From: Vectrevirus NIC06P3
Sequence record: OZ035778.1
Reading direction: 5' to 3' (one strand)
Length of the DNA: 45,947 nucleotides
Made by a program: the position numbers and the translations under genes
Part shown: in pieces, positions 8,007-28,573 of the stretch
Layout: each line of letters begins with the position of its first letter
Position numbering within the stretch: the first letter of the stretch is position 1
The notes under the pieces: model-generated
The model's database searches: none
The model's input: the letters and a program-made list of their open reading frames with translations, nothing else
Told to the model about the DNA's origin: nothing

Positions 8007-8356
8007 AAGTAGATAGGCTGTACGGCAGAATACGCAGGAACTTATTGCTTCATATCGTAACGTGAAGAAATAATTTTGCATCGTCTGCGTAGCAGTTAGT
8101 ATCTTAGTGTAACAAAGGGCTGACCTAGGTTGGCTCTTCATGAAGGAGGCAACATGATTTGGATTCACACGTATGGTGTAGGGCCGTTCAAGAAGAAGGT
8201 ACTCAGGAAGATTCATGAGTCCGAGGAATCAGCCTTAGCCAGCCAGAAGGTACTTGGTGGTACTGTCCAGTGCTACATGAAGAAGCCACAAGGCTTTAGC
8301 TTAGTATAATACAATAGTTAATATGAAAGGTTAGGTGTATGTTGTAGGGAGGTTTA

Positions 8357-8620
8357 ATGGTCATTGTCTCTAGTAAGAAGAAGAAGCAGAGTGAAATGGA
8401 TAAGATAGTGCAGACAGGTCTTGCTGCTAAGTCTGGTCAGCCACTCAATACTGGCACTAGTTCAATGGACAAGATCGTTGAAACAGGGAAACAGGCAATG
8501 TCTGGTGGGTTGGACAAGGGTGCACGGAAGCAGGCTGAGTTCAATAAGATTATTGATTTCGGTAAGGAAGCTAAGAGGGAATTCTTAAGACCATCTGCGG
8601 TAGAACCAGTAAGACACTAG
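8357..8620 (+). CDS. hypothetical protein with internal repeat MDKIV(Q/E)TG
   Basis: 87-aa ORF, Lys-rich; location in the genome right-end region; coding status uncertain. Confidence 0.3.
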   Translation: MVIVSSKKKKQSEMDKIVQTGLAAKSGQPLNTGTSSMDKIVETGKQAMSGGLDKGARKQAEFNKIIDFGKEAKREFLRPSAVEPVRH

Positions 8621-8670
8621 GTAGATTCTTAGTCCTGTACAAGGATTAACCAAAGTCAAAATTTTGATAT

Positions 8671-9590
8671 AGGCGTGTGTGAGCTCTCTCGCCCTCGCCC
8701 TCGCCGGGTTGCCCCCCCCCCCCCCCGCCCCCCCCCGCCGCGCCGGGGGCCGGGGGGGGGGCGGGGGGCGGGGGGGGGGCCGGGCCCGCCGCGCGCCGCC
8801 ACCCGGGAGGAGGCCCCCGCGGCCGTAGACGCGCTGTGCCTGAGCGTCCCCGCCGCGGCCGAGACGGCCCTGCGGCGTCTCCTGGTCGGGGAGGCCGCGG
8901 CGCCTCAGCGCGAGGACGCCGGGTCGACGGCGGCGGCGCCGGCCGGACCGGGCTCCTCCTCGGGCGAGCCCGGCGAGGGCGCGCTCACGGACCAGGCCAG
9001 CCAGAGCCCCAGCGCGTAGAGCGGCAGACCCATCACGAGACGGGCGACGCCCAGGGCCGTCGCCGCGTCCGCGAGGTAGAGCGGCACCTGCACGCCCAGC
9101 CGCAGCGCGAAGACGGCCGCCATCACCCAGGTGGCCGCCGCGTAGGCGCGCCGGCGGCGGGGGTCCGCACGCCATGCGGTCCCCTCCCCGCGCACGAGGC
9201 CGAGGATCAGGCCCACCACGGGCCAGCCCGCGAGGATCGAGACGAGGAACGCGAGGCCGTAGCCGGCGTTCGTGATGAAGCCCCAGAGGTAGTAGTCCCG
9301 GGCCTGCCCCGTGGTCAGGGCCACCGCCACCGAGAGCACGACGACGACGAGCCCGGCCAGGACCTGCGCGGGCGACTGGCGCTGCGCGAGCCGGACCACG
9401 CCCATGAGGACGGCCACGCCCGCGGCGGCCACGCCCGAGGGCCACACCTGCTGGGCCCCCGTGGTTTGGGGGGGTCGTTGTGGTCTGAATCCGCGCGTTT
9501 TCACAATGTAAATTTTTTTTTTTGAGGGGTGGTTGTGCCCGCCCCCCCCGCCCCCCGGGGGGGGCCCCCCCCCCCCCCCCCCCCCCATAT
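8671..9590. other. foreign high-GC block bounded by C/G homopolymer tracts (probable chimeric/artefactual insert)
   Basis: Abrupt composition shift; C16/C8/G10-type runs at 8711-8790 and a C22 run at 9565-9586; T11 run at 9514-9524; minus-strand frame reads like a truncated polytopic membrane protein. Confidence 0.6.
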
Positions 9591-9659
9591 GGGTGGCCTT
9601 GGTGATTGGCTTAGGAATTGGGCTGGGCGGGGCCGTCTTCGACGGGTTGGCTGGGGGGC

Positions 9660-10236
9660 TTGCCTTGTACTATCTTAGTGATACACAAGGGAGGACGCCT
9701 AGGAAGCGCTAGGGCACGCCTTAGTATTGGACAAGGTGATTGCCTTAGTGCAACCACTTTGGGCTTACACAGGCCGTTTTAGGGCCATTCTGGGCTATTG
9801 ACAGGGTGGGCGTGGGTGGGCTATCTGTTCGTTTCGTTCACTCCGCTTGCGCTACGTTCACTCGCTCACGTGTACCTTAGGTTATTGCTTGATGGGTAGC
9901 TTAAGTTAACCTTAGTGGATTGCCTTAGTTAAAGCCTTAGTGCTTCACTTAGTATCAGCTTAGTAGTGTACCTTAGTTGGTCTTAGTTCCTTATCTTAGT
10001 GATTGCACATGCAAGCATATAAGATGCCAATAGGTCGCGGTCGGTAGACCGCTAAAGAAAGAGAATAGTAATAAGATGCAGCAGGAGGAACACCAGAAAC
10101 CTAGCCAACCTAACCTATCCTAGCCTTGTATCTATTGCTTATCCTTAGTCTCACACGTTAGACAACCTAGGTTTATATTAGTAGTTGTGACCTGTATCAC
10201 ATAAATAATCTATCTTAGTGAAACTTAGTGTTGACA
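9660..10236. repeat. array of short CTTAGT(G) repeats in the genome left-end non-coding region
   Basis: At least 15 copies of (C)CTTAGT(G), eight of them within about 100 bp (9900-10010); analogous to the short repeat arrays near T7 termini. Confidence 0.55.
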
Positions 10237-10259
10237 CAGGCAATCAACAGGTGTACATT
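10231..10259 (+). promoter_or_regulatory. host sigma70-like early promoter
   Basis: TTGACA, 17-bp spacer, TACATT. Confidence 0.55.
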
Positions 10260-10410
10260 AGCAATCACTGAGGCGGACCTAGCAAGCTGCCTCAGGTTAT
10301 AAGCAGGAGAATTGATGCGTAAGCCATAGCTAATGGATGTAGTCGCATGAAGGCTTGAGTAAGGGGCCGTTTAATACCTTCTTCCTCTGGAGACAAAGCT
10401 TATAGCACTG

Positions 10411-10424
10411 CTCTTTAACAATTT
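10411..10424 (+). promoter_or_regulatory. conserved early-leader motif CTCTTTAACAATTT (candidate RNase III processing site)
   Basis: Identical 16-mer GCTCTTTAACAATTTG recurs at 11026-11041; resembles my recollection of the T7 R0.3 region (CTCTTTAACAATCTGG). Confidence 0.35.
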
Positions 10425-10741
10425 GCTTAGTGTAACCTATGTATGCCGTGGTTAATTACTTATTGAATGAGGAATTAGCTATGAATTACGAAGAAATGTA
10501 TGAAGCCTACTTCAATGCACTTGATGAAGGAGAAGAAGCATTATCTTTCGCTGAGTTTGTGGAGGCTTTATCATGACATTAAATAACCGTGAGCTATCCG
10601 TTCTCTTCACTCTGTTATGCTACATGATCCGTAACAACGAATTGCTTACAGATGACGAGTTGGCACTATATCACCGCTTTCTGAATGAAGGTTGGACCGA
10701 TACAGTTAACCAGAAACGTGATTTGATTAAGGAGTTAAGCA

Positions 10742-10966
10742 ATGTTTAAACATGAAATCTTCTTCGAGGCAGGAAGTGAAGCACTACGACTACTAGAAGA
10801 GATGGAACAAGCTGGTGTAGCTGTTGACATCACAACCTTTCTTCTGGATTACAACAGAGACTATTATAGTGTTACCTTAGTGACTGAGTATGATAATCAG
10901 GTAATTACCGAGTATCTGGGTAGTGAAGATTATGATTACGATGAAGTAATCACAACAAACTTCTAA
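10742..10966 (+). CDS. hypothetical early protein, strongly acidic
   Basis: 74-aa ORF with RBS AAGGAG; D/E/Y-rich C-terminal half. Confidence 0.45.
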   Translation: MFKHEIFFEAGSEALRLLEEMEQAGVAVDITTFLLDYNRDYYSVTLVTEYDNQVITEYLGSEDYDYDEVITTNF

Positions 10967-10974
10967 ATTAACCA

Positions 10975-11003
10975 TTGACAACCACGGCATACAAGGTTAC
11001 ATT
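10975..11003 (+). promoter_or_regulatory. host sigma70-like early promoter
   Basis: TTGACA, 17-bp spacer, TACATT; upstream of ocr. Confidence 0.55.
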
Positions 11004-11132
11004 AAGCACATAGCCGAAAGGCAACGCTCTTTAACAATTTGGATAAAGCTTCTTAGTCTGGCGAGGTTAGACCTAGGGTATTCTTTTGAGTACCCTATAA
11101 TGTAACCTAACTAACTAATGAGGATTAATAAC

Positions 11133-11486
11133 ATGGCTATGTCTAACATGACTTACTCTCAGGTTTACAACACTGCTCATGCTGCACTGGTTGAACGCGT
11201 ATGGGATGATGCCATTGATTGTATTGATAACGCACATGATGCAATCCATGAGGTAGCGGATGGTGCTGTACCAGTCTATTATGCTAACATCTTCTCAGTG
11301 ATGGCGAGTGAAGGTATTGATCACTTCTTCGAAGACTCCGGCCTGATGCCAGACACTAAAGATGTGACGGTAGTATTGCAAGCCCGTATCTATGAGCAAC
11401 TTACAATCGACCTGTGGGAATGTGTACAGGATATGATTGATGCGTACATCGACTCAGCCGAATACTCAGAAGAAGAGGAAGAATAA
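11133..11486 (+). CDS. ocr: Ocr (gene 0.3) DNA-mimic anti-restriction protein
   Basis: MAMSNMTY..., [31 protein letters not shown] and [15 protein letters not shown], with acidic EEEEE tail, closely match T7 Ocr as I recall it. Confidence 0.85.
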
Positions 11487-11592
11487 AGATGGAAAAGCAA
11501 TACAACTTTATCTTTTCCGACGGCGTAACCCTGAAGTGTTCCTTGCGATTCGCACAGATTCGCGAGGAAGTGCTAGGCACTACATACAAACT

Positions 11593-11616
11593 ATTTAGCT
11601 GACACTATAAGAGAAG
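11593..11616 (+). promoter_or_regulatory. variant phage promoter (ATTTAGCTGACACTATAAGAGAAG)
   Basis: Three mismatches to the SP6 consensus; strength unknown. Confidence 0.4.
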
Positions 11617-11683
11617 ATTTAACAGGGCGTTACTTGTTAGCGCCCGATTAAGTTTATCTCAATAAACCAAATAGGTGATTATT

Positions 11684-12568
11684 ATGACTACTGAAAACAC
11701 CCTCGTTTCTGTTCGTGAAGCTGCAACCGCTGAGATCAAGCAACACTTAGACAATATCGGCACTTCCTATATCAAGATTGGGGCTTGTCTGAATGAGCTA
11801 CGCGGTGACTTTGAAGGTCAAAAAGAGTTTTTAGCTTATGTAGAAGCTGAATTTGCCATTAAGAAGGCACAATGTTACAAGCTGATGAGTGTTGCCCGTG
11901 TCTTTGAAGGAGATGAACGCTTTAAAGGTGTGGCGATGCGTGTAATGCTGGCTCTTGTTCCTTTCGCTGATGAGAATATCATCATGGAAAAGGCTGCGGA
12001 ACTTGCCGCAGATGGCAAGTTGGACACTAACGCTGTAAACGCCCTGATTGAGCCTAAGAAAGAGACAAAGGCCGAGATGGTACAACCTAAGCCTGCGCCA
12101 GTAAAACCGCAGGAGAACGCGACTGGGGCCGCAGAAACACAGGAAACGCAAGCGCCGCAGGCAGTGCCACCAGTTAGCGAGACAGAGGCTGATGAATCAG
12201 CACCGTGGGAAGAGGAAAGCAAGCCGGAAGCTACAAAGGCCGCGCCACTGGATAACACGGCTAACACTGAGAATGCCGCTATCGCTGGCCTACTGGCACA
12301 GATTAAGGCACTGACTGAGCAACTACAGGCAGCTAATGACCGCATCGCATCTTTGAGCAGTGCACGCGAAAGCAAGAAGGCAGCCGCGCCTATGCTTCCA
12401 CAGTTTAAATCTTCTTGTTTTTACGCTCGCCTAGGGTTGAGCGCTGAGGAAGCAACTAAGAAAACGGCTGTTAACAAAGCTCGCCGCGAATTGGTTAAAC
12501 TGGGATATGGTGAAGGCCATGAGGCATGGGCTTTAATCTCTGAGGCAGTAGAAGAATTAACTAAGTAA
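11684..12568 (+). CDS. hypothetical early protein (N-terminal domain, P/E/A/T-rich linker, C-terminal helical domain)
   Basis: 294-aa ORF with RBS GGTGA; occupies the slot of T7 gene 0.7 but has no kinase motifs. Confidence 0.6.
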   Translation: MTTENTLVSVREAATAEIKQHLDNIGTSYIKIGACLNELRGDFEGQKEFLAYVEAEFAIKKAQCYKLMSVARVFEGDERFKGVAMRVMLALVPFADENIIMEKAAELAADGKLDTNAVNALIEPKKETKAEMVQPKPAPVKPQENATGAAETQETQAPQAVPPVSETEADESAPWEEESKPEATKAAPLDNTANTENAAIAGLLAQIKALTEQLQAANDRIASLSSARESKKAAAPMLPQFKSSCFYARLGLSAEEATKKTAVNKARRELVKLGYGEGHEAWALISEAVEELTK

Positions 12569-12631
12569 CCTTATCGGTGGCATCTTCTTAGGTGTCACCT
12601 ATTAAGGTTTCTTTCACTAGGAGTAAACAAG

Positions 12632-15259
12632 ATGCAAGATTTACATGCTATCCAGCTTCAATTAGAAGAAGAAATGTTTAACGGTGGCATTCGTCGCTTT
12701 GAAGCAGACCAACAGCGCCAAATTGCATCCGGTAACGAATCCGATACAGCTTGGAATCGCCGCTTATTATCCGAGTTAATCGCGCCAATGGCTGAAGGTA
12801 TTCAGGCTTATAAGGAAGAGTACGAAGGTAAAAGAGGCCGTGCACCGCGTGCATTAGCTTTCATTAACTGTGTAGAAAACGAAGTGGCAGCATATATCAC
12901 GATGAAAATCGTTATGGATATGCTGAACACGGATGTAACCTTGCAAGCGATAGCCATGAATGTAGCGGACCGCATCGAAGACCAAGTCCGCTTTAGCAAG
13001 CTGGAAGGTCACGCCGCAAAATACTTTGAGAAAGTTAAGAAGTCACTTAAGGCAAGTAAGACTAAAGCCTATCGCCATGCGCATAATGTAGCGGTAGTTG
13101 CTGAAAAGTCAGTGGCTGACCGTGACGCAGACTTCTCCCGCTGGGAGGCGTGGCCTAAAGATACCTTGCTGCAAATAGGCACTACCCTGCTTGAAATCTT
13201 AGAGAATAGTGTGTTCTTCAACGGTCAGCCTGTTTTCCTCCGCACCTTGCGCACTAATGGCGGCAAGCATGGCGTTTACTACTTACAGACTAGTGAACAC
13301 GTTGGCGAGTGGATAACTGCATTTAAAGAGCACGTAGCGCAGCTTAGTCCTGCCTATGCGCCTTGCGTTATCCCTCCGCGTCCGTGGGTGTCACCATTTA
13401 ACGGTGGTTTTCACACTGAGAGAGTGGCTAGTCGTATCCGTCTAGTTAAAGGCAACCGCGAGCACGTCCGCAAGCTAACCAAAAAGCAAATGCCAGCGGT
13501 TTACAAGGCTGTTAACGCTTTGCAGGCGACCAAGTGGCAGGTTAATAAGGAAGTGTTGCAGGTTGTTGAGGATGTTATCCGCCTAGACCTTGGTTATGGT
13601 GTGCCTTCCTTTAAGCCACTCATCGACCGCGAGAATAAGCCAGCTAATCCGGTTCCGCTTGAGTTCCAGCACCTGCGCGGTCGTGAACTGAAAGAAATGT
13701 TAACACCGGAACAATGGCAAGCCTTCATCAACTGGAAGGGTGAATGTACTAAGCTGTATACCGCAGAGACTAAGCGTGGCAGTAAGTCGGCGGCAACCGT
13801 TCGCATGGTCGGGCAAGCCCGTAAATACAGCCAGTTTGACGCTATTTATTTTGTATATGCACTGGATAGCCGTTCACGCGTTTATGCGCAATCTAGCACG
13901 CTCTCGCCGCAGTCAAACGACCTAGGCAAGGCATTGCTACGATTTACCGAAGGGCAGCCGCTAAACAGCTCTGAAGCGCTTAAATGGTTTTTGGTGAACG
14001 GGGCAAATAACTGGGGTTGGGATAAGAAAACCTTCGACGTCCGCACCGCTAATGTGCTGGATGGCGAATTTCAGGACATGTGCCGCGATATTGCAGCCGA
14101 TCCTCTGACCTTCACTCAATGGGTAAATGCCGATTCACCTTATGGGTTTCTTGCATGGTGCTTTGAGTACGCTCGCTATTTGGATGCACTGGAGGAAGGC
14201 ACACAAGATCAGTTCATGACACACCTGCCAGTACACCAAGACGGTAGCTGTTCCGGCATTCAGCACTATAGCGCGATGTTACGCGATGAAGTAGGTGCGA
14301 AAGCGGTAAACCTTAAGCCGTCCGATGAGCCGCAAGATATTTATGGGGCCGTTGCGCAAGTAGTTATCCAGAAGAACTATGCTTACATGAATGCAGATGA
14401 TGCAGAGACTTTCACGTCTGGCAGCGTCACCCTTACAGGTGCGGAATTGCGTAGCATGGCTAGCGCGTGGGATATGATAGGAATCACTCGCGGCTTAACC
14501 AAAAAGCCAGTGATGACCTTGCCTTACGGCTCCACCCGCTTAACCTGCCGTGAGTCGGTGATCGATTATATCGTTGATTTAGAAGAAAAAGAGGCACAAA
14601 GAGCTATTGCAGAAGGGCGGACGGCTAACCCTGTTCATCCCTTTGATAATGACCGTAAAGATTACTTAACTCCGGGCGCGGCGTATAACTATATGACCGC
14701 TCTTATCTGGCCTTCAATCTCTGAGGTTGTGAAAGCTCCGATAGTTGCCATGAAGATGATTAGGCAACTTGCACGCTTTGCAGCTAAAAGGAATGAAGGG
14801 TTAGAATACCCTCTGCCTACTGGCTTCATATTGCAACAAAAGATAATGGCTACCGATATGCTCCGCGTATCCACTTGTTTGATGGGTGAAATCAAGATGA
14901 GTCTACAGATTGAAACCGATGTGGTGGATGAAACGGCAATGATGGGTGCGGCTGCTCCTAACTTTGTGCATGGTCATGATGCTAGTCACCTTATCCTGAC
15001 TGTATGTGACCTCGTGGATAAAGGTATTACATCCATTGCAGTTATTCATGACTCTTTCGGCACTCATGCAGGACGTACCGCAGACTTGCGTGACAGCTTA
15101 AGGGCAGAAATGGTTAAGATGTATCAAAACCATAATGCCTTGCAAAACCTGCTGGATGTGCACGAAGAACGTTGGTTAGTAGACACCGGAATCCAAGTAC
15201 CCGAGCAAGGGGCGTTTGACCTTAACGAAATCTTAATATCTGACTATTGCTTCGCATAA
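12632..15259 (+). CDS. single-subunit DNA-dependent RNA polymerase, SP6-like
   Basis: 875 aa; near-colinear with the SP6 RNA polymerase as I recall it ([32 protein letters not shown]..., [15 protein letters not shown], ... FA C-terminus). Confidence 0.97.
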
Positions 15260-28033: not shown

Positions 28034-28573
28034 ATGTCACACTATGTATGTAAGAAATGCCATAATCGCTATGATAATTGCACCTGTGATTATAGTAAAG
28101 GTGAAAGAATTAAAGCAGGTGATTATGTTATACGACGTGCTGGCTGCCGCACTTTAGAGTGGAATAAGGTATGTAACCAATTAGGAAAGAAAGGGGATGC
28201 AACATTCAAAGTTACAAAGGATGAGCCTGTCAGCAGCGCTATTATGCTTGAAGGTATCGAAAATAGAGAATGGTATGCACCTTATTTCGAGCGAGTAGCT
28301 GCTCCCCAAGTTGTATCTGAGTCCAACATGTTGGAAAACAATATGGTTACTCAGCCTAAGCACTACGAGTTCTTCGAAGGTGTAGAAGCAATCACTATCA
28401 TTGCCCGTAGTATGACCGAGAAGCAATTCGCTGGCTATTGCATGGGTAACGCCTTGAAGTACCGCCTGCGTGCAGGTAAGAAGTTCAACACTGAAGAAGA
28501 CCTGAAGAAAGCAGATTACTACAAAGAGTTATTCCAGAAGCATCGTCACGAATGTATTGATGAGGACATTTGA
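28034..28573 (+). CDS. hypothetical protein with N-terminal Cys cluster (possible zinc ribbon)
   Basis: CKKCH ... CTCDY; RBS GGAGG at 28022-28026; C-terminal region loosely resembles a phage domain of unknown function. Confidence 0.5.
   Translation: MSHYVCKKCHNRYDNCTCDYSKGERIKAGDYVIRRAGCRTLEWNKVCNQLGKKGDATFKVTKDEPVSSAIMLEGIENREWYAPYFERVAAPQVVSESNMLENNMVTQPKHYEFFEGVEAITIIARSMTEKQFAGYCMGNALKYRLRAGKKFNTEEDLKKADYYKELFQKHRHECIDEDI

What the first reader, a model, noticed from the sequence alone, without database searches (positions are those of the whole stretch)
10975..11486. T7-type Ocr anti-restriction gene and R0.3-like leader motif in an SP6-type backbone
The 118-aa protein matches T7 Ocr, the DNA mimic that inhibits type I restriction-modification, over most of its length. 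It is driven by a sigma70-like promoter and preceded by the 16-mer GCTCTTTAACAATTTG, which recurs at 10409 and resembles the T7 early-leader sequence around the R0.3 RNase III site as I recall it. The RNA polymerase and promoters are clearly SP6-type, so the early region looks T7-like; I cannot tell from memory whether SP6 itself carries an Ocr homolog, so the mosaic reading is tentative.
Basis: partly seen in the sequence, partly recalled or inferred. Interest (0 to 1): 0.45.

Follow-up and report, generated by a model that had tools for sequence, protein, structure and literature searches.

The report
Known Ocr anti-restriction gene with leader
This K1E/SP6-type coliphage carries an ordinary, already catalogued copy of the Ocr DNA-mimic gene that blocks host restriction, and the repeated 16-mer in front of it is a copy of the host's ribosomal-RNA BoxA antitermination signal, not a novelty.

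Summary
ORF 11133-11486 (117 aa) matches T7 Ocr over its full length: Pfam PF08684 at 140 bits, and PDB 1S7Z residues 1-117 at 63% identity. It lies downstream of a conserved TTGACA-17-TACATT promoter (10975-11003). The 16-mer occurs exactly twice, at 10410 and 11026.

The 16-mer is a BoxA element. It shares 21 nt with the E. coli rrn leader and fits the published consensus GYTCTTTAANA. T7 has the same element 112 nt before gene 0.3. Between BoxA and the ribosome-binding site lies a 75-nt irregular hairpin (11049-11123). It has the same architecture and position as T7's R0.3 RNase III site and shows strong covariation.

The mosaic point is not new. SP6 gp5, K1-5 gp3 and K1E gp3 are annotated Ocr homologues, and SP6 Gp5 has been shown to inhibit BREX. 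This allele sits in a 145-member cluster at 90% identity.

The discordance behind the mosaic idea is real but old and group-wide. Ocr is 63-66% identical to T7's, against 25-35% for core proteins. SP6-like backbones carry at least four divergent ocr alleles between conserved flanks.

Verdict: already known, low interest. Separately, window 8716-9582 is a Micrococcus DNA fragment, probably an assembly chimera.

The parts
10231..10259 (+). First early sigma70-type promoter (TTGACA-N17-TACATT)
   Evidence: Consensus scan, 10 of 12 positions. Near-identical sequence in K1E (nt 715) and SP6 (nt 576). Function is inferred.
10410..10425 (+). BoxA copy 1 (GCTCTTTAACAATTTG), 150 nt downstream of the first promoter
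   Evidence: Exact repeat. With its 5' flank it is identical over 21 nt (AGCACTGCTCTTTAACAATTT) to the E. coli rrn leader, 129 nt upstream of 16S rRNA, in 5425 of 5426 genomes. It fits the consensus GYTCTTTAANA from PMC5725501.
10975..11003 (+). Second early sigma70-type promoter, directly upstream of the ocr leader
   Evidence: The sequence, spacer included, is conserved in K1-5, K1E, SP6, L019 and L034-L036.
11026..11041 (+). BoxA copy 2, about 15 nt after the predicted transcription start and 107 nt before the ocr ATG
   Evidence: BoxA lies at -107 to -114 from the ocr ATG in T7-like phages and at -100 to -109 in most SP6-like ones. SP6 itself and L019 lack the exact 12-mer there.
11049..11123 (+). 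Irregular 75-nt hairpin of the T7 R0.3 (RNase III site) type. It has a 10-bp upper stem with a tetraloop, an internal loop, and middle and lower stems. The base of the stem pairs CUUC with the Shine-Dalgarno GAGG.
   Evidence: MFE -36.8 kcal/mol, z = -4.09, 0 of 200 shuffles as stable. The T7 leader has the same three-tier architecture. A covariance model built from Vectrevirus leaders finds T7 813-927 and SP6 1536-1639. In the resulting alignment 95.6% of cells are paired, 15 of 28 pairs show changes on both sides, and all 10 pairs of the upper helix do. Cleavage by RNase III is inferred, not shown.
11133..11486 (+). ocr gene (117 aa), a DNA-mimic anti-restriction protein
   Evidence: Pfam PF08684, 139.9 bits. 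PHROG 2568 'ocr-like anti-restriction', 159.7 bits. PDB 1S7Z, full length, E 1.3e-40. 26 D/E against 3 K/R.
11489..11602 (+). Small conserved gene (37 aa, homologue of K1-5/K1E gene 4) that forms the conserved downstream flank of the ocr cassette
   Evidence: phrog_11746, 104 bits. DNA is 87-100% identical to K1-5, while the ocr CDS is only 23-70% identical in 30-nt windows (80% in a single window).
11593..11613 (+). First SP6-type phage promoter after the genome's left end (ATTTAGCTGACACTATAAGAG), marking the end of the stretch that only host RNAP can transcribe
   Evidence: 13 matches to TTAGNNNACACTATA with up to 1 mismatch, against 0.3 expected. Eleven are on the + strand. None of these lies between the genome left end (about 8687) and 11595.

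Best explanation
The region is the standard early 'anti-defence first' module of an SP6/K1E-type (Vectrevirus) coliphage.

As the left end of the genome enters the cell, host sigma70 RNA polymerase starts at two strong promoters (10231 and 10975). Each transcript soon contains an rrn-type BoxA (10410, 11026). BoxA is expected to load NusB/NusE(S10) and the other Nus factors onto the polymerase. That would make the polymerase fast and resistant to Rho-dependent termination through the poorly translated early leader, as on ribosomal RNA operons.

Downstream of the second BoxA the RNA folds into a long irregular hairpin equivalent to T7's R0.3 RNase III site. The base of this hairpin sequesters the Shine-Dalgarno sequence. 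Cleavage in the internal loop, predicted near 11098-11102, would release a stable monocistronic-style 5' end and free the ribosome-binding site.

The first substantial protein made is then Ocr, a highly acidic dimer that mimics bent B-form DNA. It occupies the DNA-binding groove of type I restriction-modification enzymes, and of BREX PglX. The unmodified incoming genome is thereby protected.

Shown here: the homology, the sequence motifs, and the conserved structure with covariation.
Inferred from T7, rrn and SP6 work: Nus loading, RNase III cleavage, translational activation, and inhibition of R-M and BREX.

Evolution: ocr behaves as an exchangeable cassette between a conserved leader and a conserved downstream gene. 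SP6-like phages carry at least four divergent alleles. This window's allele belongs to a common Vectrevirus lineage roughly equidistant from the T7 and SP6 alleles.
For: Ocr identity: plus (571 phage records match; 90-96% identity to Vectrevirus proteins annotated 'protein Ocr').

Acidic character: 26 D/E against 3 K/R, and 22 of T7's 34 acidic positions are kept.

Early position: ocr lies upstream of the first phage promoter and of the RNAP gene.

BoxA:
- 21-nt identity to the rrn leader.
- Fit to the published consensus.
- Only two matches in 46 kb, both on the + strand, each downstream of one of the two promoter matches.
- Conserved distance to the ocr ATG across two subfamilies.
- T7 RNAP does not use Nus factors (PMC5725501). 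This fits BoxA being restricted to the region transcribed by host RNAP.

Hairpin.

Cassette behaviour:
- Window against K1-5: leader 80-90%, ocr CDS mostly 23-70%, downstream gene 87-100%.
- In the NJ tree there are at least four Ocr clades on backbones whose RNAP N-termini are 88-99% identical.
- Core proteins are 25-35% identical to T7 but Ocr is 66%. Core proteins are mostly 80-91% identical to SP6 but Ocr is 61%.

Function of homologues: the SP6 Gp5 homologue inhibits Salmonella BREX (PMC11341690).
Against: - No function was tested here.
- The window allele has fewer acidic residues than T7 Ocr (26 against 34) and diverges in the first 40 and last 17 residues. Its target range could therefore differ.
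- SP6's own ocr-proximal BoxA is degenerate (GATCTTTAACAA). Some T7-like relatives lack an exact BoxA. BoxA is therefore not indispensable.
- The structural alignment used for covariation was fitted to the model, which inflates the paired fraction (caveat).
- I found no open-access paper describing BoxA in T7- or SP6-group phages. My belief that it is known for T7 rests on memory only.
Confidence: 0.85

Rival explanations
1. A recent, genome-specific mosaic: this phage, unlike its SP6-type relatives, picked up the T7 early module (leader plus ocr) by recombination with a T7-like phage.
For: Ocr is 63-66% identical to T7 against 25-35% for core proteins. The first 24 nt of the CDS are identical to T7. 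The BoxA-hairpin-SD layout is shared.
Against: SP6, K1-5 and K1E all have ocr. The exact allele type sits in a 145-member cluster at 90% identity, on contigs of about 43-45 kb among the members listed. Six related loci, four of them on 43.7-45.2 kb contigs, carry it at 88-96%. Third codon positions are only 48% identical to T7 and overall nt identity is 66%. The leader is 80-90% identical to K1-5, not to T7.
Confidence: 0.03
2. Purely vertical inheritance: the BoxA-R0.3-ocr module was present in the common ancestor of Studiervirinae and Molineuxvirinae. It is simply more constrained than the core genes, with no horizontal exchange.
For: The module has the same order and spacing in both subfamilies. 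DNA mimicry and the dimer interface could impose strong constraint. Synonymous sites are heavily diverged.
Against: Within SP6-like phages whose RNAP N-termini are 88-99% identical, Ocr drops to 48-61% identity and splits into at least four clades. The SP6 clade groups with T7-like phages rather than with other SP6-likes. Divergence is sharply bounded to the CDS between conserved flanks. Two records both named K1E carry different alleles. A slowly evolving, vertically inherited gene would not show this pattern.
Confidence: 0.15
3. The 16-mer is not a functional BoxA. It is a conserved leader motif with another role (for example part of an RNase III or RNase E recognition context, or a promoter-proximal pause or translation signal), or it resembles rrn BoxA by chance.
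For: No binding data exist. SP6's ocr-proximal copy departs from the consensus, and some T7-likes lack an exact copy. Copy 1 lies 150 nt from its promoter and copy 2 only about 15 nt. The motif's 3' end can pair weakly in MFE folds.
Against: 21-nt identity to the rrn leader. Perfect fit to an experimentally derived consensus. Only about 0.2 matches expected by chance. Strictly sense-strand copies confined to the host-transcribed region in the whole-genome sequences of the window, T7 and SP6, and seen likewise in the left-end stretches examined for K1-5 and K1E.
Confidence: 0.15
4. The similarity to Ocr is an artefact of acidic low-complexity sequence.
For: The C-terminus (SEEEEE) is low-complexity, and the protein is 22% D/E.
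Against: Gap-free full-length alignment to 1S7Z. 48 of 60 identities in the non-repetitive core, including [14 protein letters not shown] and [13 protein letters not shown]...[15 protein letters not shown].
Confidence: 0.01

Closest known systems
T7 gp0.3 Ocr (PDB 1S7Z; Pfam PF08684)
   Same: Same length (117 aa). 63% identity with no gaps. Same N-terminal MAMSNMTY. Conserved central block and acidic C-tail. First substantial early gene, transcribed by host RNAP. Preceded by BoxA at about -110 and by an R0.3-type hairpin.
   Different: Fewer acidic residues (26 against 34 D/E; 12 T7 acidic positions lost, 4 gained). Divergent in residues 9-40 and 101-112. One dedicated promoter 158 nt upstream, instead of T7's A1-A3 cluster. 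The backbone is SP6-type, with 25-35% core identity to T7.
Vectrevirus Ocr alleles of the same lineage (e.g. phage AAPEc6, vB_EcoP_KAW1A4500, vB_EcoP-CC1 'Overcome classical restriction gp0.3')
   Same: 90-96% protein identity, same locus, same leader and flanks. Same 90% cluster of 145 members.
   Different: Only point differences. Several relatives (AAPEc6, K1-5) have an extra segment of about 212 nt, with a third BoxA, between the promoter and the ocr leader. The window lacks this segment.
SP6 gp5 (NP_853565.1), experimentally shown to inhibit Salmonella BREX
   Same: Same genome position in the same backbone type (core proteins mostly 80-91% identical). Same promoter and same hairpin class. 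Function shown in PMC11341690.
   Different: Only 59-61% identical to the window protein. SP6 gp5 is closer to T7 Ocr (77%) than to this allele. Its proximal BoxA is degenerate (GATCTTTAACAA).
K1-5 gp3 / K1E (NC_007637) gp3
   Same: Same genus and same locus. Leader 80-90% identical and downstream gene 87-100% identical. Annotated ocr-like.
   Different: A different allele class: 108-110 aa, 49% identity, lacking 9 residues of the C-terminal helix region.
E. coli rrn leader BoxA (Nus-factor antitermination site)
   Same: 21 consecutive identical nucleotides. Fits GYTCTTTAANA. Located in a promoter-proximal untranslated leader.
   Different: No adjacent rrn-type boxB/boxC context was identified. 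It is followed by an RNase III-type hairpin and a protein-coding gene. Nus binding is untested.
T7 R0.3 RNase III processing site
   Same: Same position between BoxA and the SD. Same three-tier hairpin with a tetraloop-capped upper stem of 9-10 bp and an internal loop. Detected by a covariance model trained only on Vectrevirus sequences (37.5 bits, E 1e-5). Covariation seen across both groups.
   Different: Primary sequence is largely different outside BoxA and the SD. The window's lower stem pairs directly with the GAGG. The cleavage site is not mapped. The T7 coordinate 890 is recalled from memory, not from a tool result.

Membership tests
Ocr DNA-mimic anti-restriction protein (Pfam PF08684 / PHROG 2568) | Sequence match above the curated threshold covering the whole domain | tested here: met
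   PF08684: 139.9 bits against a cut-off of 25, profile positions 1-100 of 101. phrog_2568: 159.7 bits.
Ocr DNA-mimic anti-restriction protein (Pfam PF08684 / PHROG 2568) | Colinear full-length similarity to the solved T7 Ocr structure, not limited to acidic runs | tested here: met
   1S7Z aligns 1-117 with 1-117, E 1.3e-40. 63% identity, gap-free, with 48 of 60 identities in the core.
Ocr DNA-mimic anti-restriction protein (Pfam PF08684 / PHROG 2568) | Strong net negative charge from surface Asp/Glu that imitate DNA phosphates | tested here: met
   26 D/E against 3 K/R. 22 of T7's 34 acidic positions are retained and 4 new ones gained. This is less acidic than T7 Ocr. The surface pattern was not modelled.
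Ocr DNA-mimic anti-restriction protein (Pfam PF08684 / PHROG 2568) | Early gene at the genome's leading end, transcribed by host RNAP before phage RNAP is made | tested here: met
   Lies about 2.4 kb from the left end (8687). It is downstream of sigma70-type promoters and upstream of the first phage promoter (11595) and of the RNAP gene (12632).
Ocr DNA-mimic anti-restriction protein (Pfam PF08684 / PHROG 2568) | Homodimer that binds type I R-M enzymes (and BREX PglX) and blocks restriction | not testable with these tools
   Shown for T7 Ocr (PDB entries listed) and for SP6 Gp5 against BREX (PMC11341690). Not shown for this allele.
BoxA (Nus-factor loading site) | Match to the gamma-proteobacterial consensus GYTCTTTAANA | tested here: met
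   Both copies match. They are the only two matches in the window, with 0.21 expected. Consensus from PMC5725501.
BoxA (Nus-factor loading site) | On the sense strand of a transcript made by host RNAP, promoter-proximal | tested here: met
   Both copies are on the + strand, 150 nt and about 22 nt downstream of the -10 elements of the two sigma70-type promoters. Transcription itself is predicted, not measured.
BoxA (Nus-factor loading site) | Binds NusB/NusE and confers antitermination | not testable with these tools
T7-type RNase III processing site (R0.3 class) | Extended irregular hairpin (about two helical turns) with an internal loop, significantly more stable than shuffled sequence | tested here: met
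   Window 11049-11123: -36.8 kcal/mol for the 126-nt stretch, z = -4.09. The architecture is shared with T7.
T7-type RNase III processing site (R0.3 class) | Structure conserved by compensatory change among relatives | tested here: met
   95.6% of cells paired, against 35-48% when partners are slid. 15 of 28 pairs change on both sides, including all 10 in the upper helix. 0 of 500 shuffles reach the covariation score. Caveat: the alignment was fitted to the model.
T7-type RNase III processing site (R0.3 class) | Cleaved by host RNase III in vivo or in vitro | not testable with these tools
   No Rfam family matched. Cleavage needs 5' end mapping in rnc+ and rnc- hosts.

The most novel reading that the evidence does not exclude
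The BoxA-hairpin-ocr unit may be a hot-swappable anti-defence cassette in enterobacterial Autographiviridae. The conserved leader and the conserved gene-4 flank would serve as recombination handles. The four or more divergent alleles in SP6-like phages would be maintained by diversifying selection from host systems that Ocr inhibits (type I R-M, BREX) or that sense Ocr (PARIS-type abortive infection). On this reading the window's allele lineage, with markedly lower acidic charge (24-29 D/E against 30-41 in the T7 and SP6 types, apart from one 157-aa variant) and remodelled N- and C-terminal helices, would have a different inhibition or evasion spectrum from T7 Ocr. In addition, the one-BoxA-per-early-promoter arrangement would mean these phages depend on host Nus-factor antitermination for transcription-driven genome entry.
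Probability: 0.2. Interest if true: 0.4.

Novelty: already known. Interest (0 to 1): 0.13.

Why it matters
As an annotation, it matters little. Ocr in SP6/K1E-type phages has been recognised since the 2004 genome papers, is named in RefSeq, and has been tested functionally for SP6 Gp5.

There are three practical points.
1. A therapy-relevant K1-type coliphage with this gene should be expected to resist type I R-M and BREX, and possibly to trigger Ocr-sensing abortive-infection systems.
2. The repeated 16-mer should be annotated as BoxA, and the downstream hairpin as a putative RNase III site, rather than as one 'R0.3-like motif'.
3. ocr alleles are swapped among near-identical backbones, so ocr is a poor taxonomic marker but a useful locus for studying phage-defence arms races.

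The record also needs curation, because it contains a Micrococcus DNA fragment at the genome terminus.

Tried and rejected
- Rfam scan of 9500-12700 at E up to 1. The only hit was a sub-threshold Pseudomon-1 match (21.8 bits against 50) inside homopolymer junk at 9506-9616. No curated family covers the leader.
- Sequence-only MAFFT plus RNAalifold on divergent leaders put SP6 and L035/L036 out of register and recovered only 6 pairs. I replaced it with per-sequence folding and a covariance-model alignment.
- Folding of the first leader (10262-10485) gave no significant structure: z = -0.81. The R1 model found no second R0.3-type hairpin in the window.
- Six literature searches for BoxA in T7- or SP6-group phages found nothing relevant in the open-access library (four searches ran; two calls, 25 and 37, returned an error for a too-short term). 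The SP6 and K1F genome papers (PMC374404, PMC1317022) are not held.
- Pfam on the small early ORFs (10481-10576, 10573-10749, 10742-10966, 11489-11602, 11684-12568) gave only sub-threshold noise. PHROGs places them in families of unknown function.
- I did not run structure prediction. At 63% gap-free identity to a solved structure it would add nothing, and homologues taken from loci cannot be submitted.
- I considered and rejected a recent T7-to-this-phage transfer and a low-complexity artefact (see the rival explanations).
Full report
**What the window is.** The window is a complete, circularly permuted genome of a K1E/K1-5-like coliphage (genus Vectrevirus, subfamily Molineuxvirinae, the SP6 supergroup).
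- The early region 9900-12700 matches 100 phage records by megablast, mostly Escherichia and Vectrevirus phages at 87-92% identity.
- The best whole-genome relatives reach about 90-91% identity over about 70-74% of the first 25 kb.
- Its RNA polymerase is 85% identical to SP6's but only 32% identical to T7's.
- About eleven SP6-type promoters (..GACACTATA) lie on the + strand.
- The physical left end of K1E maps to window 8687. The finding therefore lies about 2.3-2.8 kb from the leading end of the genome, upstream of the first phage promoter after that end (11595) and of the RNAP gene (12632).

**Checking the observation.**
- The ORF is 11133-11486 and encodes 117 aa.
- It hits Pfam PF08684 'DNA mimic ocr' at 139.9 bits (cut-off 25) over the whole profile, and PHROG 2568 'ocr-like anti-restriction' at 159.7 bits.
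- It aligns residue 1-117 to residue 1-117 of the T7 Ocr crystal structure 1S7Z, E 1.3e-40.
- The alignment to T7 is gap-free and 63% identical. There are 48 of 60 identities in the non-repetitive core (aa 41-100). The low-complexity objection therefore fails.
- A TTGACA-N17-TACATT promoter sits at 10975-11003. Its sequence, spacer included, is conserved in K1-5, K1E, SP6 and uncultured relatives.
- The 16-mer GCTCTTTAACAATTTG occurs exactly twice, at 10410 and 11026. No shuffle out of 100 reached two matches.
- T7 has GCTCTTTAACAATCTGG 112 nt upstream of gene 0.3. The remembered resemblance is real.

**What the 16-mer is.** It is a BoxA element, not part of the RNase III site.
- The first copy with its flank (AGCACTGCTCTTTAACAATTT) is identical over 21 nt to a sequence found in 5425 of 5426 complete E. 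coli genomes, at a median of four places per genome.
- In the example I opened, that sequence lies between murI and a 16S rRNA gene, 129 nt upstream of the 16S gene. This is the rrn leader.
- Both window copies fit the experimentally grounded gamma-proteobacterial BoxA consensus GYTCTTTAANA of Baniulyte et al. 2017 (PMC5725501). They are the only two matches in 46 kb, against 0.21 expected.
- In the whole-genome sequences of the window, T7 and SP6, every exact GCTCTTTAACAA is on the + strand and inside the early region transcribed by host RNAP. The same holds in the left-end stretches examined for K1-5 (6 kb) and K1E (4.6 kb). Copy numbers are 2, 1, 2, 3 and 3 respectively.
- In the window there is one BoxA downstream of each of the two strong sigma70-type promoters (10231 and 10975).
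- The same paper notes that T7 RNAP does not respond to Nus factors. That explains why the motif is confined to the host-transcribed leader.

**BoxA function.** The functional reading is an inference from rrn and lambda biology. BoxA would load NusB/NusE and the other Nus factors onto host RNAP, making early transcription processive and Rho-resistant. From memory, that transcription also pulls T7-group genomes into the cell. I recall that BoxA has been noted in T7 by Molineux, but I could not confirm this. No open-access paper in the library links BoxA with T7- or SP6-group phages, and the SP6 and K1F genome papers are not held.

**The R0.3-like element.** The RNase III-type element is the next feature downstream.
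- RNA 11049-11123 folds into a 75-nt irregular hairpin. It has a 10-bp upper stem capped by a tetraloop, an internal loop, a middle stem AGGUUA/UAACCU, and a lower stem.
- The base of the lower stem pairs CUUC (11049-11052) with the Shine-Dalgarno GAGG (11120-11123).
- The 126-nt leader has an MFE of -36.8 kcal/mol against -23.3 ± 3.3 for shuffles, z = -4.09.
- T7's leader between BoxA and the 0.3 start folds into the same three-tier shape.
- Among close relatives the upper stem switches between GGGUA/UACCC and GGAGA/UCUCC. SP6, L019 and L035/L036 have yet other upper stems.
- A covariance model built only from seven Vectrevirus leaders recovered the equivalent leader in other SP6-like phages (58-60 bits), in SP6 (42 bits) and in T7-like phages. 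The T7 hit is 813-927, 37.5 bits, E 1e-5. Nearly every hit starts at BoxA and ends at the ocr ATG.
- On the resulting 23-sequence alignment, 95.6% of cells form pairs, against 35-48% when partners are slid. Fifteen of 28 pairs change on both sides, including all ten in the upper helix. No shuffle out of 500 reaches the covariation score. The caveat is that the alignment is fitted to the model.
- BoxA lies at -107 to -114 from the ocr ATG in T7-like phages and at -100 to -109 in most SP6-like ones.
- I infer RNase III cleavage in the 3' side of the internal loop, near 11098-11102. This is by analogy with T7 R0.3, whose coordinate 890 I recall from memory. Cleavage would free the Shine-Dalgarno sequence. 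None of this was tested.

**The mosaic question.** It does.
- SP6 gp5 (1637-1996), K1-5 gp3 and K1E gp3 are annotated 'ocr-like anti-restriction' in RefSeq.
- SP6 gp5 was proposed as an anti-restriction protein by Scholl et al. 2004, as cited in PMC4837284.
- SP6 Gp5 fully inhibited Salmonella BREX in Went et al. 2024 (PMC11341690).
- The window's exact protein is in the public collection, on the 45,947-nt contig that is this window. It belongs to a 145-member cluster at 90% identity, which includes 'Overcome classical restriction gp0.3 [phage vB_EcoP-CC1]'.
- The nearest INPHARED match is 95.5% identical (AAPEc6).

**The discordance is nevertheless real.**
- Against T7, core proteins are 25-35% identical: terminase 35, RNAP 32, primase/helicase 25, DNA polymerase 35, portal 33. 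Ocr is 66%.
- Against SP6, core proteins are mostly 80-91% identical, but Ocr is only 61%.
- Pairwise Ocr identities are: window-T7 63%, window-SP6 59%, T7-SP6 77%, window-K1-5/K1E 49%.
- In an NJ tree, phages whose RNAP N-termini are 88-99% identical to the window's carry at least four divergent Ocr clades. The SP6 clade groups with the T7-like phages.
- Between the window and K1-5, DNA identity is 80-90% in the leader, mostly 23-70% across the ocr CDS, and 87-100% from the last codons of ocr into gene 4. This is the signature of allele replacement between conserved flanks.
- Two records both called K1E carry different alleles.
- A slowly evolving, vertically inherited gene would not show this pattern. 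I therefore favour repeated horizontal exchange among enterobacterial Autographiviridae.
- The exchange is old. Window and T7 share 66% nt identity, and only 48% at third codon positions.

**Properties of this allele.** It has 26 D/E and 3 K/R, against 34 and 6 in T7. It keeps 22 of T7's 34 acidic positions, loses 12 and gains 4. Divergence is concentrated in residues 9-40 and 101-112. The blocks [27 protein letters not shown] and [15 protein letters not shown] are conserved. Whether the lower charge changes the target spectrum cannot be told from sequence.

**Verdict.** This is a correctly spotted but ordinary feature. It is a known Ocr allele in its usual place in a Vectrevirus genome, preceded by a BoxA and an R0.3-type hairpin that it shares with T7. 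The specific claim of a noteworthy T7/SP6 mosaic is not new. The general phenomenon behind it, ocr as an exchangeable and fast-diversifying cassette, is supported and mildly interesting.

**Side finding.** Window 8716-9582 is foreign DNA.
- K1E nt 1-30 align to 8687-8716 and K1E nt 27-784 align to 9583-10300. Phage Phi100-A is likewise contiguous across this point.
- The core 8777-9455 is 96.9% identical over 679 bp to the Micrococcus antarcticus chromosome.
- It encodes, on the minus strand, a truncated DUF3159 protein (PF11361, 172.5 bits).
- It is bracketed by homopolymer runs: C15, C9, G10 and G10 on one side, and T11, C8, G8 and C22 on the other.
- It sits inside a natural C-tract about 30 nt from the phage's physical end. 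It is most likely an assembly or library chimera with a Micrococcus contaminant.

Noticed in passing
window 8716-9582: An insert of about 866 bp with about 65% GC, absent from K1E and Phi100-A. It lies inside the C-tract about 30 nt from the phage's physical left end. Its core, 8777-9455, is 96.9% identical to the Micrococcus antarcticus chromosome and encodes a truncated DUF3159 protein on the minus strand. It is flanked by long C, G and T homopolymers. Most likely an assembly or library chimera with a contaminant.
   Followed up: yes
window 8050-11100, especially 9911-9995: The hexamer CTTAGT is strongly concentrated around the genome ends: 20 of the 30 + strand copies lie in this 3-kb stretch. 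Eight copies form an array at about 12-bp spacing at 9911-9995. One copy follows BoxA copy 1 (10426) and one lies in the hairpin's lower arm (11052). Function unknown.
   Followed up: partly
window 28034-28573: The nucleotide-kinase ORF is 63% identical to T7 gp1.7 over 73 aa. Core genes are 25-35% identical to T7. This is a second locus that is discordantly T7-like.
   Followed up: no
L005 (K1-5) 1193-1575; L008, L010, L011: Several close relatives carry an extra segment of about 212 nt, with a third BoxA, between the conserved sigma70 promoter and the ocr leader. Their promoter is at -382 and their BoxA copies at -320 and -108. In the window the promoter directly precedes the leader, at -158.
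   Followed up: partly
L001 (K1E NC_007637) 2346-2672, compared with cluster member AQY55037.1: Two database entries named phage K1E carry different ocr alleles. RefSeq gp3 is the 108-aa K1-5 type (49% identical to the window). A protein named K1E, AQY55037.1 (118 aa), falls in the window-type 90% cluster.
   Followed up: partly
window 11625-11645: A GC-rich hairpin (GGGCGTTACTTGTTAGCGCCC) lies about 12 nt downstream of the phage promoter at 11593-11613 and before the gene starting at 11684. The scan flagged it as terminator-like, but its T-tract is poor. Possibly an RNA-processing or attenuation element.
   Followed up: no
window 1-45947: The contig is a circularly permuted whole genome. The terminase large subunit is at 329-2227 and the genome left end at about 8687. 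Coordinates therefore do not follow the conventional SP6/K1E map.
   Followed up: partly
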